Positions 49,401-56,400 of a stretch of DNA of 64,000 nucleotides are shown here, piece after piece; positions within the stretch are counted from its first letter, which is position 1; every line of letters starts with the position of its first letter. The DNA comes from Gekko japonicus. Lineage: Eukaryota. The stretch covers positions 188,789-252,788 of the forward strand of contig NW_015168098.1 of the NCBI RefSeq assembly GCF_001447785.1, read 5' to 3'. The position numbers are program-made.

Positions 49401-52400
49401 TAGCCCACAGTTGCACCAAGCACTGCATACACACACGCACACACCCCAAGCTTCCCTGAGGGCGAGGCTGCACTCAAAAAGGGAAATTCTAGCTCTTAGG
49501 TTGGCTTTGCAAACAAAGCGACGCCGTGGTAGAGGTCCCCACATCAGAAACATTGTCTGGAAACCTCCAAATCAAGTTAGAGGTAACCTCGCCTAAGGGT
49601 AGGAACCACAATCCTCGACAGCTAGTTAGCGGTTACCCAGTCAGAGAAGTGTGGCCTTGGCCCCCTGCACTCTCAAAACCTGCACCCTGGTTCAAGATGC
49701 ACCTTGGGTGGGAGGGAGAGACCCCTGCCCTAAACTCAGGCTCCATGAACATCCATGAAGCTGCCTTATACTGAATCAGACCCTGGGCCCATCAAGGTCA
49801 GTATTGTCCACTCAGACTGGCAGCAGCTCTCCAGGGTCTCAGGCAGAGGTCCTTCCCTTCACCTAAATCCCTATCTTTGTAACTGGAAGTGTCCAGGATT
49901 GAACCTGGGACTTTCTGCATGCCAAGCAAGTGCTCAACCACTGAGCCACAGTTCCTACCCTATAGATTGCTAAAATAATTCACAATTGTGTACCTTTTTA
50001 CAGACTTTTCCCTAAAACAAATTTGTTTCCTTTGAAAGTAGCCAGAACGTTTTCCATAATCATATCGCAGGTCTTTTGAACTGTCTTTCTCAGGGCCTCC
50101 TTGACAGAATCGTTCTTCAGAGTGAAGAGGAATGGGTTCAAGAAGGGGCAGACGATGGCGGTCAGAACGGCTGGCACCTTGTGGGCATCCAGGGTCTCTT
50201 TCTGTGAGGGAGTTACATAGGTGAAGATGGAGATCCCGCTGGAGATAGAGATCATTGTGAGGTGTGTGGCACAGGTGTTGAAGGCTTTAATCCGGCTGGT
50301 GGTGGTGGGGATGAGCAGAATTGTTGAAATGATACACGCATACGAAATCAGGGTCAGGACCACTGAACCAATGATCACAAGAGAGGACAGCATGAAATCC
50401 ATTAGCTCAATGAAACGGGTGTCGGTGCACGACAGCTCCAGCAGAGGTCCAGTGTCACAGAAGAAATGGTTGAGGCTGTTGGATCTGCAGAAGGACAACC
50501 TGCTAATCTGGATGGTGGGGCAGAGGACAGAGAGAAACCCACACAACCAAGAAGCCAGAACCATCTTGACACACACCTCGCCCCTCATGATGGTGTGATA
50601 ATGCAGAGGTTTACAAACTGCCACATAGCGATCGTAGGACATGGACGTCAAGAGCAAAAACTCCACGGTGCCCAACAAGAAGTAGAAGTAGAGCTGGGCC
50701 ATGCAGGCTGAGAAGGGAATAGATTTGTCACCGGAAAGGAGGTTCCACAAGAGCTGTGGACTGATGACGGAGGTGAACATGATGTCTAATACGGAGAAGT
50801 TACACAGGAAGAAATACATGGGAGTATGGAGCTGACTGTTTCCCAACACAAGGCAGAAGATTAGCATGTTGCCAGCCAGCGATGTGATGTACATAGCCAG
50901 AAAGACCAGAGCAAGCAGGATCTCTCCTTGGTGCCCAAGGGAGAACCCCAATAGGATGAATTTGGTCACAGTTCTGTTGAAGGTCTCCATCTCTTGTCAC
51001 TTTTTGCCTGCGACTTAGTAAGGCCACCTGTGGAGAGAAGGCTGGTAGTTAAGGATTCCACAATCTCCAGATGGACTTGGTCAGAGCTCCAGGCTTTTGT
51101 GTTCACAAAGAGAATTGGAGAATCAATCGACTATTTCTGATTTCTGCTACTTTGGTTCTCTCCCATTTATAAAAATCTCAACCCAGGATTTTCTAGATCC
51201 TAATTTCTCATTTTCTCATCATCATCATCATCAATCAATCAGTTTGGTGTAGTGGTGAAGTGCATGGACTCTAATCTGGGATAACCAGGTTTGATTCCCC
51301 ACTTCTCTCTCTCTCTTTTTTTTTGTAAGTACCCAAGGGTACATTTTTATTGATTTTTTCATTATAAACTACAAACATACATAACAACAGACAAACACCT
51401 ACCTACAACTAAGAAACACAAAACATATAGCGAGAGGCTTATATTTAATATTATATCTTTGATTAACTATGTGTTAATTTTCTATCCTTTTATCTATCTT
51501 ACTGGCTTTTTCTTTTCTATGTTCTCAAATTTCCACAAATCAAGTTATTTCGCTTATAATATACCAGTCATAAAATCTCTTCCAAGTGTTCTGAAAAGTC
51601 CATTCAATTCCATCTCTCATCTCTAATGTCAGGTTATCATTCTCAGCCATTTCAAACAGTTTATTCACAAATTCTTGTTTCGTTGGAGTCTCCATTGTTT
51701 TCCAGTACTTAGCATATAAAATTCTTGCAGCTGTTTATAAGTGAACAATCAAATACCTGTCTGTTTTATCAAAATCTTTCGGAAATATATTCAGTAACAG
51801 TGTCTCTGGAGTAAAAGGAACCTTACATCTTATTATTTTTTGCATTATTTCATGTACCCATTTCCATAATCTTTTTGTTATATCACATAACCACCACATA
51901 TGATAAAAAGAACCAATCTTATTCTTATATTTCCAACATTTGTCTGAACAATTAACATTTTGTTTAGCTAGTCTGTCTGGTGTAATATACCATCTATAAA
52001 ACATTGTATACGTATTCTCTTTATAGGATACTGCATTAGTCAGTTTAACATTTTTCAGCCAAATCTGCTCCCATTCCTCTAGATTAATATTACGACCAAT
52101 GTTGTGGGCCCGTGCAATCATTTCCCCCCCCAAAAAAATTTCATCTATCATCACATCATCTAGTAAAATCTTATATAATTTATTTATCACTTTACTTTCT
52201 GCAGTTAATATAGTTTCTTCCAACTTAGTTATTTTATTATTAAATCCTAGCTTCTTGTCCTTCAGGTATATCGATTCCAATTGTGCTTTTCTCCACCCGG
52301 ATATCTGTTCTGGTATTTTAAGGTTATCTTTTTTATCCAAAATGTCCTGGTATCTTAACAGCTCTTCTCCTACATAAACATTCGGTAAAGTAAATGCCTC

Positions 52401-53477: not shown

Positions 53478-56400
53478 ATCAATCAGTTTGGTGTAGTGGT
53501 GAAGTGCACGGACTCTACTCTGGGAGGACCGGGTTTGATTCCCCACTTCTCCACTTGCACCTGGCTGGGTGACCTTGGGCAAGTCGTAGTTCTGATAAAA
53601 AGAGCTTTTGGGAAGACATTAGAGAGAGGTTGCGTTCATCCACATTATTGGCATTCCTCGCTGTGTCACAGCAAGAGACTGGTGACAAACGCCAACTGAG
53701 AGAGAGAGTTGAAAAAGACATACGAAACCACTGTTTAATCTTCACAAAGTGTGTTCTCTTTATCTTTTACATTCCTCAGAACTACATGTTTTCAAATGGA
53801 GGAGTGATAAACACTGTTCAGGAACTCATATAATGAGGACTTCTCAGTTTGCTTTGCACACTTTATAGCTCCGTCAGGACGTCTCAAAGAGTAAACATGC
53901 CAGGAGCTCAGCCAAAACAACGTCAAGAATAACTACATCAAGATTTTGTATTGTTTTGTATTGTACTCATATTATCATTTACTGGTTTTGCTTATGTTCA
54001 TAAAATGTACTTCATATATAATGAATGAATGCTACTTAATAGAGGAGATTTGTTATAAGGAGATTTGTTATAATAATACAACTATGTGTGTTAAAGATAT
54101 AGAAGAGTAACTTTCCTTTGTGCGCCCTATTTTTCCTATTGTAGTTCTGACAAGAGCTGTCCCTGAAAAAGAGCAGTTTCTGTCAGAGCCAGTTTGGTGT
54201 AGTGGTTAAGTGTGCGGACTCTAATCTGGGAGAACCGTGTTTGATTCCCCACTCCTCCACTTGCACCTGCTGATGTGACCTTGGGTCAGTCACAAGCTCT
54301 GGCACAGCTGTCCTTGAAAAAGGCCCAACAAGCGGCCTTCGGAAACTGCAGAGGGTAGTGCTCTTCGTCTTGAGAGCATAATTGCTCGTCCATACTTTGG
54401 GACTGTTAAGATGAACAAATAGATAGGAATTGTGAAGCTTGGAGGAATCCCAATATAAAGGGAAGAACAAACCCTCCTAACTCTGCATATAGTACTCTTT
54501 ACAGCTGTCTTCATAATTTTTAAAATGATTTTACAAGCTGAAGGCCATCCTAGAGCAGCAATTACATTTTCTGGGCATTGCATGACATTCAGTTCTTCTT
54601 CTGTTCCTTGTTTCCACCCACCAGAGAAATTATCATGCTTCATATAGAACAGGAGGCTGTTATTCTCGGGGGGGGGGGATATTTCAAGTCTCATGTGCAG
54701 AGCCAAAATCCAGGCTCTAGCTTTGATGGAGTGTCGGCCCACTTCTAACCTGAGGACTGTACCTGCTACATATTTCAGTACTCCACAGATCTAATGTAAG
54801 AACTGTGTTAACAGTTGATCTTTGGGGTTTTGGGGGGGGGGTTGTAAACATTTTATTTTTAGGATATATTCAACAAAGTCCAACATTTGTATTACACTTC
54901 TTATCCCTTTATATCCTACCCTCCTCCCTTTCCCCCCCTATGTATGGATTCCCACAATGCTACAACCTCCTGCATATCCTTAGGTTACTCTTAAGTACTC
55001 CTCGTTATCTCTACATATTCAACAGGTAACTCAATAGTTATCAAAGCAAAATAAATTGTCTCTCACATCCCAATATTTTTCCAAGTATTCTTTTAAATCT
55101 TTCCAGTCTTCAAAAAAGTCTTCTGCTGCCATGTTATTCAATTTCCTTGTAATCGTATCCATTTCAACCATGAAAAGTAGTTTTTTAATCCATTCTCCAA
55201 TTCCAGGAACTTCCTCCTGTTTCCAACTTTGTGCATATATCATTCTAGCATGTAACAATCATGTACCACATAGGCGTCCTTTTTGCCACATTAACCTCTT
55301 CCATTTTGAGCCCCAAAAGTAATATTTCTGGCTCTTTTTTAAATTTGCAGTTAACTATTTTTTCCATCTCTGCATGAATCTCAACCCAAAACTTCTTTGC
55401 TTTTTCAAATTTCCACCACATGTGGTAAAACGAGCCTTCTACTTTTTTACATTTCCAACATTTACTCGACATTTTTGTATTCATATTTGCAATCTTTTTT
55501 GGAGTAACAGTTGATCTTTGGTTTTATCTGTTTTATGCATCCAGACTGCTGCTCCATATAATATTTGAGGTATCATCTAGGTGTTGAAAACTGTAATTGC
55601 AGCTGGCAGTTATTGACCACCTAAAGGCAGTCTAAACCACTGTTTGTTACCATATGGCAACCCTTCATTACTAATTCACAGATTTGTTCATAATTGTCCC
55701 CCCCCCTTTCTAATGTTGTAATCTTTGAACTTATGTTCTTTATTGTGGTTTNNNNNNNNNNNNNNNNNNNNNNNNNNNNNNNNNNNNNNNNNNNNNNNNN
55801 NNNNNNNNNNNNNNNNNNNNNNNNNNNNNNNNNNNNNNNNNNNNNNNNNNNNNNNNNNNNNNNNNNNNNNNNNNNNNNNNNNNNNNNNNNNNNNNNNNNN
55901 NNNNNNNNNNNNNNNNNNNNNNNAGGTTGCTTGCAATCACATCCTATCCTTAAAATACAGATTTTCCATAAAAACAGATACCCAGTCTTTTGCGAGCCTA
56001 TGAAAAGCAGATAGACGGCATGCATAGGCAGAGAACTCTGAGCAGTACCAAAATTTCACCTTGACATTATACTTACTGGTACCACTCAGTAGAAGAAACC
56101 CGTTCTGGATGTAATGAAGCCAGCATAGGCATTGCGAAATGGGAGGGATGCCTATGGTTTTATAGTTATGATAACTCAGTGAATACTGTTCTTCACATTC
56201 TATGGTAGTAGACTTCTGGGGAAATATTGGTGTTCGGGGGGGGGCTCTTTTATAATCACACAGGGTGCACCTCTGAGATTAAGTTATATTTCTTTCCCCA
56301 AAGAATACAGAAATGTATTACTGGTCCAAAACCATTAGTCTGGTACCAGGGATTGGATCCCACCAGAATACTTTGACTAATGACTGGCTAAATGAAATAC

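What the first reader, a model, noticed from the sequence alone, without database searches (positions are those of the whole stretch)
50740..53551. OR-L1 in-frame chimera created by an L1 between ~570-bp direct repeats
Seen: 50740-51307 and 52957-53551 are direct repeats covering OR codons 1-84, the acceptor and upstream flank, with an L1 (51308-52956) exactly between them. The upstream copy gives a 490-aa ORF: OR TM1-TM2 plus ~405 aa of L1 ORF2 C-terminal region. The original upstream flank now adjoins the chimera, and the intact OR (49998-50990) keeps only ~320 bp of flank before the L1. Inference: this is either a giant TSD or an L1-associated deletion between two tandem OR units. The OR promoter may drive a chimeric transcript, and the L1 poly(A) signal plus the duplicated acceptor could intercept splicing to the intact OR. 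The frame ends at a frameshift before the natural L1 stop, so decay is as likely as function.
Basis: partly seen in the sequence, partly recalled or inferred. Interest (0 to 1): 0.75.

Follow-up and report, generated by a model that had tools for sequence, protein, structure and literature searches.

The report
Gecko L1 insertion with 568-bp duplication
A truncated L1 retrotransposon landed just upstream of a gecko odorant-receptor gene and duplicated about 570 bases of its target, so a decaying receptor-L1 fusion reading frame now sits in front of the intact gene; the event is unusual in size but of a known kind.

Summary
50740-51307 (D) and 52957-53551 (U) are direct repeats: 19 mismatches in 568 aligned bases plus one 27-nt microsatellite gap. 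A 5'-truncated L1 piece (51308-52956, minus strand) lies exactly between them. The window is gecko, not human. U carries the upstream flank, a candidate splice acceptor, the ATG and 84 receptor codons, and it reads in frame into the L1 ORF2 tail (490 aa). D leads into an intact OR6J1-like gene (49998-50990).

Most likely this is a long target-site duplication (confidence 0.65). A second, unrelated L1 in the same window (42968-43698) has a 102/119-nt flanking duplication, and its single-copy empty site survives in a paralogous unit.

The main rival is an L1-associated deletion in a three-unit tandem array (0.18). It stays open because D/U divergence (3.35%) equals that of the neighbouring 6.9-kb segmental duplication (3.58%), and the paralogue's counterpart is hidden under N.

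Relatives align in one frame across a single in-frame stop, about what neutral decay predicts (1.56 expected). All four amino-acid differences are derived in U, and none in the intact gene. Expression is untested.

This is a new member of a known kind, of modest interest.

The parts
49998..50990 (-). Intact olfactory receptor gene (OR6J1-like), 330 aa, here called OR-B
   Evidence: ORF. Pfam 7tm_4 at 2.4e-40. Best named relatives are gecko OR6J1-like proteins at 80-85% identity.
50740..51307 (-). Repeat copy D (568 nt): receptor codons 1-84 (less the last base), 5' leader with candidate acceptor, 317 nt of upstream flank ending inside a SINE-like repeat
51308..52956 (-). 5'-truncated L1 piece (1649 nt): ORF2 tail, 3' UTR, AATAAA (51346-51351), tail A9(GA)4 (51308-51324) abutting copy D
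   Evidence: Tail and signal were read.
51546..52956 (-). L1 ORF2 remnant, a broken gene given as one part. It corresponds to residues ~797 onward of a 1275-aa ORF2, with no endonuclease or RT domain. Breaks: 5' truncation, one in-frame stop, no frameshift detected
   Evidence: Outer bounds and counts. Mapping. Pfam finds no L1 domain in it.
52957..53551 (-). Repeat copy U (595 nt): same content as D with a longer (ATC)n. Its SINE-like repeat continues uninterrupted past 53551
52957..53207 (-). Receptor-derived start of the 490-aa chimeric ORF (ATG at 53207; codon 84 is completed by the first L1 base)
51028..51029 (-). Candidate 3' splice acceptor AG (ccttctctccacag|G) 37 nt before the ATG of OR-B. 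The identical site in copy U is at 53245-53246
   Evidence: Read. No difference between the copies in this stretch. By inspection only, with no splice predictor or RNA data.
53552..57961 (-). Original upstream flank of the receptor unit, now adjoining the chimera. It is colinear with the flank of paralogous unit A
   Evidence: blastn blocks.
41185..48048 (-). Paralogous unit A (receptor OR-A plus flank). Its counterpart of the D/U repeat lies under the N run 41907-42499, which was not filled. Its SINE-like repeat is continuous across the site that matches the L1 3' junction (42500-42604 vs 53531-53636)
42866..43817 (+). Comparison case L1(ii): 5'-truncated L1 piece 42968-43698 flanked by direct repeats 42866-42967 (102 nt) and 43699-43817 (119 nt). 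Unit B holds one uninterrupted copy at 53940-54058
54809..55521 (-). Comparison case L1(i): L1 piece 54826-55504 with an ordinary 17-nt TSD (54809-54825 / 55505-55521). The empty site is in unit A near 45858-45880
17658..19464 (+). Comparison case L1(iv): 5'-inverted L1 (17673-19449) with a 15-nt TSD (17658-17672 / 19450-19464)

Best explanation
A 5'-truncated L1 copy integrated by target-primed reverse transcription into a SINE-like repeat 317 nt upstream of the start codon of a gecko OR6J1-like receptor gene. The other strand was broken, or the cDNA was joined, 568 nt further downstream, inside receptor codon 84. The stretch between the two breaks was therefore filled in on both sides of the insert. 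This is a long target-site duplication, in effect a small L1-bridged tandem duplication.

The upstream copy (U) kept the whole original flank, the candidate acceptor, the ATG and 84 codons. By a 1-in-3 chance it reads in frame into the L1 ORF2 tail, giving a 490-aa ORF of two receptor helices plus the post-RT part of ORF2. The downstream copy (D) leads into the intact gene.

Shown: the repeat, its exact abutment to both L1 ends, the L1 identity and orientation, the tail and poly(A) signal, the in-frame junction, and the neutral-looking decay of the L1 part and of U.

Inferred: the order of breaks, that the chimera has no function, and that the intact gene is still used.
For: 1. Topology. Both L1 ends abut the repeat with no other sequence. 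The A9(GA)4 tail, 21 nt after an AATAAA, abuts the start of D. The truncated 5' end abuts the end of U.

2. Priming. The nicked strand would end in ...TTCTC, which can pair with the (GA)n of the tail (read).

3. Long TSDs do occur in this genome. L1(ii) at 42968-43698 is flanked by 102/119-nt repeats, while paralogous unit B holds a single uninterrupted copy, so that duplication arose with the insertion. Of the 4 L1 insertions in the window with both junctions readable, 2 have duplications over 100 nt and 2 have 15-17 nt. The two long cases come from different L1 lineages (38% amino-acid identity).

4. The D side plus the U flank together are colinear with unit A as one unit, and the window shows no trace of a third unit.

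5. Unit A's SINE-like repeat is continuous across the position of the L1 3' junction.

6. U behaves as a dead copy and D as a live one. All 4 amino-acid differences are derived in U when judged against 5 gecko/squamate orthologues. All 5 of the 9 coding differences that a window paralogue can polarise are also derived in U.

7. The kind is known. One 1228-bp long TSD was found among 25 LINE insertions in DT40 cells (PMC2666801, passages). 'Extremely long TSDs' accompany 5'-truncated L1 in HeLa cells (PMC2912911, PMC4245944, passages). L1-bridged tandem duplications occur in tumours and in cell models (PMC7058536, PMC11702581, passages).
Against: D/U divergence (19/568 = 3.35%) is not lower than that of the A/B segmental duplication (109/3042 = 3.58%; blocks range 1.6-7.3%). 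If unit A lacks the L1, the insertion must therefore have followed the duplication closely. A three-unit history explains this equality without any coincidence.

Unit A's counterpart of the repeat is under N, so there is no paralogous empty site for the whole 568 nt and no three-way tree. No orthologous locus could be searched.

No close L1 relative was found (best 46% identity), so the age of the L1 could not be compared with the age of the repeat.

The inferred nick site (TTCTC/CA) is not the classical T-rich/A-rich L1 site.

The assembly is gapped (8 N runs), and no reads were available to confirm the two junctions.
Confidence: 0.65

Rival explanations
1. L1 insertion-associated deletion in a three-unit tandem array. 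Three receptor units (C, B, A) once stood in tandem. The L1 was primed in the SINE-like repeat upstream of OR-B, and its 5' end was joined to codon 84 of unit C. This removed roughly 6-8 kb: the rest of OR-C, its downstream flank and most of B's upstream flank. U would then be the remnant of unit C and D the start of unit B.
For: The resulting topology is identical to what is seen. D/U divergence (3.35%) equals A/B divergence (3.58%), as expected if all units arose together. Tandem duplication of this very unit is documented in the window. L1-mediated deletions from 0.5 kb upward, without TSD, are well documented (PMC7058536, passages).
Against: It needs an extra unit for which the window holds no trace. 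It also needs a multi-kilobase deletion. The A/B pair is separated by a unique 1.7-kb spacer rather than being a clean array. A verified long TSD 8 kb away shows that the simpler route exists in this genome. All 4 amino-acid changes lie on U and none on D. That fits a copy dead from birth better than one that was a working gene for part of its history, though the numbers are small.
Confidence: 0.18
2. Assembly artefact. Two different L1 copies, one inserted in a receptor paralogue at codon 84 and one in the SINE-like repeat upstream of OR-B, were merged through their shared L1 sequence in a gapped short-read scaffold. This would join two loci that are not adjacent.
For: The window has 8 N runs. 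The 1649-nt L1 piece is longer than typical short-read inserts. The receptor paralogues are 96-97% alike.
Against: D and U differ at 19 sites and in a microsatellite, so they are not a collapsed or duplicated identical stretch. The U flank continues colinearly with unit A for over 4 kb. The scenario needs two same-family L1 copies with matching truncation and overlap. No close copy of this L1 is in the window.
Confidence: 0.08
3. A 568-nt tandem duplication already existed and the L1 later inserted exactly at its joint. Alternatively, an L1 cDNA was captured as filler at a break during a replication-based duplication, without the element's own endonuclease.
For: Endonuclease-independent L1 insertion is described (PMC1920257, search listing and abstract only). 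The inferred nick site is not the classical motif.
Against: Hitting the exact joint is about a 1-in-1000 chance. It should also leave its own short TSD, and none is seen. The A-rich tail directly at the junction, behind an AATAAA, is the normal signature of priming at a nick.
Confidence: 0.04
4. The receptor-L1 fusion is a selected new gene, or a selected decoy that regulates the intact receptor downstream.
For: A 490-aa ORF with its own ATG, acceptor and full upstream flank, followed by a poly(A) signal.
Against: The in-frame junction is a 1-in-3 chance. One stop in 470 ORF2 codons matches the neutral expectation of 1.56, with P(at most 1) = 0.54. The receptor part has 4 derived amino-acid changes, one placing an arginine in the first helix. 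No endonuclease, RT or complete receptor domain is present. The ORF did not appear among the database proteins returned for its L1 part (0 of 20).
Confidence: 0.03

Closest known systems
Long target-site duplications (L-TSD, >20 bp) of LINE insertions in cell-culture assays
   Same: A 5'-truncated LINE copy flanked by a direct duplication of hundreds of bases. One of 25 ZfL2-2 insertions in DT40 cells had a 1228-bp TSD (PMC2666801, passages). 'Extremely long TSDs' were seen with 5'-truncated L1 in HeLa cells (PMC2912911 and PMC4245944, passages, both citing Gilbert et al.). The accepted model is second-strand cleavage far downstream of the first nick.
   Different: This case is a fixed or at least assembled germline event in a gecko, it is about 3% diverged, and it duplicates the 5' end of a gene. 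The genome surveys I read passages of restricted TSDs to 5-30 bp (PMC2912911), so natural frequencies are poorly known.
L1-bridged tandem duplications in human tumours and L1-expressing cells
   Same: An L1 insert with a poly(A) tail sits at the joint of a direct tandem duplication. Examples are a 22.6-Mb duplication (PMC7058536, passages) and 'small tandem duplications' at insertion sites (PMC11702581, passages).
   Different: Those events are somatic or experimental and mostly far larger. The proposed route there involves a second break on a sister chromatid. Here 568 nt could arise from staggered breaks on one molecule.
L1 insertion-mediated deletions
   Same: The outcome has the same topology if a tandem array preceded the insertion: an L1 with tail, a 5' truncation and no short TSD (PMC7058536, passages).
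   Different: It requires a lost third unit. Nothing in the window shows one.
Gene models that read into L1 ORF2 tails in squamate annotations
   Same: Among the 20 proteins matching the L1 part were annotated host-gene isoforms that contain an ORF2 tail. These are Anolis 'EF-hand calcium-binding domain-containing protein 14 isoform X1' and 'probetacellulin isoform X1', Pantherophis 'netrin-4 isoform X2', and a Naja V-set domain protein.
   Different: Those are presumably exonised or mis-annotated intronic L1 pieces, and I did not examine them. Here the fusion is in a single exon and was created together with a duplication of the gene's 5' end.

Membership tests
L1 (LINE-1) retrotransposon copy | Coding sequence homologous to L1 ORF2p | tested here: met
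   Human ORF2p structures 8sxt/9k6g/8uw3/9hdo match at E 1.3e-30 to 2.4e-28. A Varanus 1275-aa protein with PF03372 and PF00078 matches at 46% identity over 100% of the query.
L1 (LINE-1) retrotransposon copy | Endonuclease and reverse-transcriptase domains present in this copy | tested here: not met
   The piece starts at about residue 797 of 1275, after the RT domain. Pfam finds no L1 domain in it. It is a dead 3' fragment of an L1, not an autonomous element.
L1 (LINE-1) retrotransposon copy | 3' end with poly(A) signal and A-rich tail at the junction | tested here: met
   AATAAA at 51346-51351 and tail A9(GA)4 at 51308-51324, directly abutting copy D.
Long-TSD class of LINE insertion | Direct repeat abutting both ends of the insert, in the order that only a duplication can give | tested here: met
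   The 5' junction lies at the site that is downstream in the gene, and the 3' junction at the upstream site.
Long-TSD class of LINE insertion | Single copy of the duplicated stretch at an empty (ancestral, allelic or paralogous) site | tested here: inconclusive
   For the focal L1, unit A is readable only for the last 21 nt of the repeat and beyond (42500-42604), and it is continuous there. The rest is under N and was not filled. For L1(ii) the feature is met.
Long-TSD class of LINE insertion | Age of the repeat equals age of the insert | not testable with these tools
   No close L1 relative was found (best 46%). No eukaryotic genome collection was available.
L1 insertion-mediated deletion | Sequence present at the ancestral locus and missing next to the insert | not testable with these tools
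   This needs an orthologous or allelic locus. None could be searched.
Olfactory receptor (7tm_4), intact gene 49998-50990 | Full seven-helix receptor domain in an open frame | tested here: met
   7tm_4 positions 1-277 of 280, E 2.4e-40. It aligns end to end with gecko OR6J1-like proteins.
Olfactory receptor (7tm_4), chimeric ORF | Full seven-helix receptor domain | tested here: not met
   Only profile positions 3-57 of 280 are matched, at 22.5 bits against a cut-off of 27.

The most novel reading that the evidence does not exclude
In this gecko lineage, target-site duplications of a hundred to several hundred bases are a frequent outcome of L1 integration rather than a rarity. Two of the 4 readable L1 insertions in this window show them, and the two come from L1 lineages only 38% identical. 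This points to the host's handling of the integration intermediate rather than to one element family. L1 would then be a regular source of small tandem duplications able to copy promoters, first exons and gene 5' ends, as happened to this receptor gene.
Probability: 0.2. Interest if true: 0.6.

Novelty: new member of a known kind. Interest (0 to 1): 0.32.

Why it matters
If the long-TSD reading is right, this is a natural germline example of an L1 duplicating a gene's regulatory flank, acceptor, start codon and first 84 codons in one step. Until now that outcome has been documented mainly in cell-culture assays and tumours.

It also leaves a tidy natural comparison. A decoy first exon with a poly(A) signal stands between a receptor gene and its upstream flank, yet the gene's protein sequence still looks constrained.

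The two long TSDs within 10 kb raise a testable question about how common such events are in squamate genomes. The fusion ORF itself is most likely a by-product with no function.

Tried and rejected
1. Dating the L1 from relatives failed. Both protein searches with the L1 part (near length; longer) returned 20 proteins each, none above 46% identity at full coverage (up to 58% over 30-41% of the query). No age could be derived. A family consensus was not built, by rule.

2. A three-way comparison of D, U and unit A was impossible. A's counterpart lies under the N run 41907-42499. Only 21 nt overlap, with one informative site where A agrees with U.

3. A cluster of substitutions in D next to the L1 tail (5 in 68 nt) looked like a junction-specific effect. 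When polarised against other copies of the SINE-like repeat, 3 changes are derived in D and 2 in U, and two are CpG transitions. The idea was dropped.

4. I asked whether the A/B segmental duplication is itself bridged by a retroelement. The 1.7-kb spacer 48049-49744 has no L1-like coding similarity, no match elsewhere in the window, and no A-rich tail or flanking short repeat on reading. It was left unclassified.

5. The 124-nt perfect repeat at 14548/14967 was examined as a possible third long TSD. The 295 nt between the copies show no tail or L1 similarity, so it was not counted.

6. An exact look-up of the chimeric ORF and of OR-B in the protein collection was not possible (one search was not sent by the system).

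7. Literature searches found nothing specific on receptor-L1 fusions or on gecko L1 TSD lengths (116 papers held at least 4 of the 5 terms, and none of the 10 listed was on the point; 1 paper, a general review). That is the only basis for saying I found nothing in print.

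
Full report
WHAT IS THERE

The window is not human. The intact receptor's best named relatives are OR6J1-like proteins of geckos: Euleptes europaea 85%, Sphaerodactylus townsendi 83%, Eublepharis macularius 82% and Paroedura picta 80%. Primate OR6J1 proteins stand at 57-60%. The window holds 8 N runs, and none was filled.

The gene and the L1 both lie on the minus strand. 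In gene orientation the order is as follows:
- the upstream flank (57961 down to 53552);
- repeat copy U (53551-52957);
- the L1 piece (52956-51308);
- repeat copy D (51307-50740);
- the rest of the receptor gene (down to 49998).

U and D differ at 19 of 568 aligned bases and by one 27-nt (ATC)n length difference. Of the 19 differences, 9 fall in the 251 coding bases and 10 in the 317 flank bases.

Each copy holds part of a SINE-like repeat (other copies at 27047, 28994, 42500 and 54190), about 250 nt of unique flank, and a candidate acceptor (ccttctctccacag|G) 37 nt before the ATG. Each also holds the ATG and receptor codons 1-84. The acceptor is called by inspection only.

THE L1 PIECE

The translation of the L1 part matches human LINE-1 ORF2p residues 782-1185 of 1275 (E 1.3e-30; 5 PDB sequences matched). 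It also matches residues 797-1210 of a 1275-aa Varanus komodoensis protein that carries endonuclease (PF03372) and RT (PF00078) domains (46% identity). The piece is therefore a 5'-truncated 3' part with no endonuclease or RT domain.

It ends with an AATAAA, 21 further bases and a tail A9(GA)4 that abuts copy D.

Counting breaks in ORF2: there is the 5' truncation and one in-frame stop, and no frameshift was detected. Nine of 10 database relatives and 1 of 2 other L1 ORFs of the window align as a single segment in one frame with one stop inside it, out to 51546. The other two alignments end earlier.

With 470 codons, 280 possible stop-creating single changes and a per-copy divergence of 1.7%, neutral decay predicts 1.56 new stops. 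P(at most 1) is 0.54. The long open frame needs no selection to explain it.

THE NEIGHBOURHOOD CHANGES THE QUESTION

The receptor unit is itself duplicated. Unit A (41185-48048) matches 49745-50472 and, beyond the L1 and U, 53531-57961, in colinear blocks. Over nine blocks the divergence is 109/3042 = 3.58%, with blocks ranging from 1.6 to 7.3%. The two units are separated by a unique 1.7-kb spacer.

Unit A's counterpart of the D/U repeat lies under the N run 41907-42499. Only its last 21 nt are readable. From there the SINE-like repeat runs on uninterrupted across the position of the L1 3' junction, as it does in U.

OTHER L1 INSERTIONS IN THE WINDOW

A tblastn scan found five L1-like coding stretches. 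They make four insertions whose two junctions can both be read:
- L1(i), 54826-55504, has a 17-nt TSD, and unit A shows the empty site.
- L1(iv), 17673-19449, is 5'-inverted and has a 15-nt TSD.
- L1(ii), 42968-43698 in unit A, is flanked by repeats of 102 and 119 nt. Unit B holds one uninterrupted 119-nt copy (53940-54058), so that duplication was made by the insertion.
- The focal L1 is the fourth.

Thus 2 of 4 insertions carry duplications over 100 nt. The two elements are only 38% identical in protein.

HOW IT MOST LIKELY AROSE

The topology allows only a duplication of a single unit or a deletion within a tandem array. The reason is that the L1 5' end joins the site that lies downstream in the gene, while the tail joins the upstream site. 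A simple insertion or a simple deletion on one unit cannot give this order.

I favour the long TSD (0.65). The reasons are that the route is demonstrated 8 kb away, that D plus the U flank make exactly one unit colinear with A, and that no trace of a third unit exists.

The nicked strand would end in ...TTCTC, which can pair with the (GA)n of the tail. This is an inference.

The main rival (0.18) is an L1-associated deletion of roughly 6-8 kb in a three-unit array. Its best argument is timing. D/U (3.35 ± 0.75%) is as old as A/B (3.58%), which the TSD model must put down to an insertion soon after the duplication. The L1(ii) repeats show the same level (4/104), so a burst of events is plausible, but the resolution is poor.

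An assembly join through the L1 (0.08), and a pre-existing duplication or break-capture of L1 cDNA (0.04), are less likely.

WHAT IT DOES

U looks dead and D alive. The script listed 10 differing codons. I dropped the row for codon 84, because its third base is the first L1 base. Of the 9 remaining coding differences, 4 change the amino acid and 5 do not.

At all 4 changed positions D keeps the residue that the five orthologues aligned favour. The orthologues agree with D in 5 of 5, 4 of 5, 3 of 5 and 5 of 5 cases, and none shares U's residue. Taking a window paralogue as outgroup, 5 of the 9 differences can be polarised and all 5 are derived in U.

One U change puts an arginine into the first helix.

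For the 3' part of the gene, OR-A and OR-B differ at 10 sites in 363 nt, 4 amino-acid-changing and 6 silent. This fits continued constraint on the pair, although OR-B carries more derived changes than OR-A.

From these small numbers I infer that the intact gene has stayed in use and that the fusion ORF is a by-product. If the gene's transcription start lies upstream of 53551, transcripts would meet U's acceptor, ATG and the L1 poly(A) signal first. Whether that happens is untested.

The fusion protein did not appear among the proteins returned for its L1 part (0 of 20). The exact look-up could not be made.

COMPARISON WITH WHAT IS KNOWN

Long TSDs and L1-bridged tandem duplications are described in cell-culture assays and tumours. 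I read passages of PMC2666801, PMC2912911, PMC4245944, PMC7058536 and PMC11702581. Diverse co-existing L1 lineages in reptiles are stated in the abstract of PMC5381506 (search listing).

I found nothing specific on receptor-L1 fusions or on gecko L1 TSD lengths.

The find is a new member of a known kind.

LEFT OPEN

- No eukaryotic genome, read or transcript collection was available, so no orthologous or allelic site, no junction-spanning reads and no expression could be checked.
- The L1's age could not be measured.
- The N runs were left as they are.

VERDICT

The frameshift claim is wrong, and a function for the chimera is unlikely. Interest is 0.32, lifted a little by the second long TSD in the same window.

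Noticed in passing
window 42866-43817: A second L1 (a different lineage, + strand) has a 102/119-nt target-site duplication, and its single-copy empty site is preserved in paralogous unit B (53940-54058). Its 5' end also starts with an extra copy of about 40 nt of L1 sequence that recurs 152 nt further in (42963-43002 = 43115-43154, 97.5%). This suggests a template switch or untidy 5' joining.
   Followed up: yes
window 41185-48048 vs 49745-57961: A 6.9-kb segmental duplication of the receptor unit, 3.58% diverged. One boundary is the tail end of a tRNA-derived SINE (tRNA-like parts at 41324-41395 and 49884-49955). The other boundary is a (GGAA)n tract. The copies are separated by a unique 1.7-kb spacer (48049-49744) of unknown nature, rather than being directly adjacent.
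   Followed up: partly
window 54826-55504: An L1 piece specific to unit B has an ordinary 17-nt TSD but an odd tail, on its sense strand a C run, then AAAA, then CCCC, instead of a plain A tail.
   Followed up: partly
window 17658-19464: A 5'-inverted L1 (coding pieces on opposite strands meeting near 18900) with a 15-nt TSD. The right-hand flank also contains an inverted copy of the TSD sequence about 100 nt away (19556-19568).
   Followed up: partly
window 14548-14671 and 14967-15090: A perfect 124-nt direct repeat 419 nt apart, with a second 58-nt repeat interleaved (14492-14549 / 14670-14727). It may be a recent local duplication or an assembly effect. No L1 or tail lies between the copies.
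   Followed up: partly
window 3538-3812 and 4159-4211: A GC-rich 54-nt tandem repeat array interrupted by an N run (3849-4158).
   Followed up: no
window 7039-7986, 16007-16984, 24204-25181, 33240-34313, 41438-41906 (rest under N), 49998-50990, 61548-62576: The window is a receptor gene cluster. It holds six complete receptor ORFs, one partly masked (OR-A), and the 84-codon fragment in U. OR-A lacks two C-terminal residues that OR-B and the gecko orthologues share.
   Followed up: partly
window 50110-50472 vs 41544-41906: Polarised with the window paralogue alone, OR-B carries 5 derived changes and OR-A 3, and 2 are ambiguous. Polarising the amino-acid changes with the gecko orthologues instead gives 7 for OR-B against 2 for OR-A. 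This could mean faster change in OR-B or gene conversion of OR-A. The numbers are too small to tell.
   Followed up: partly
database proteins P0131, P0138, P0139, P0140: Annotated host-gene isoforms of Anolis, Naja and Pantherophis match the L1 ORF2 tail. Gene models that read into L1 pieces therefore seem common in squamate annotations.
   Followed up: no
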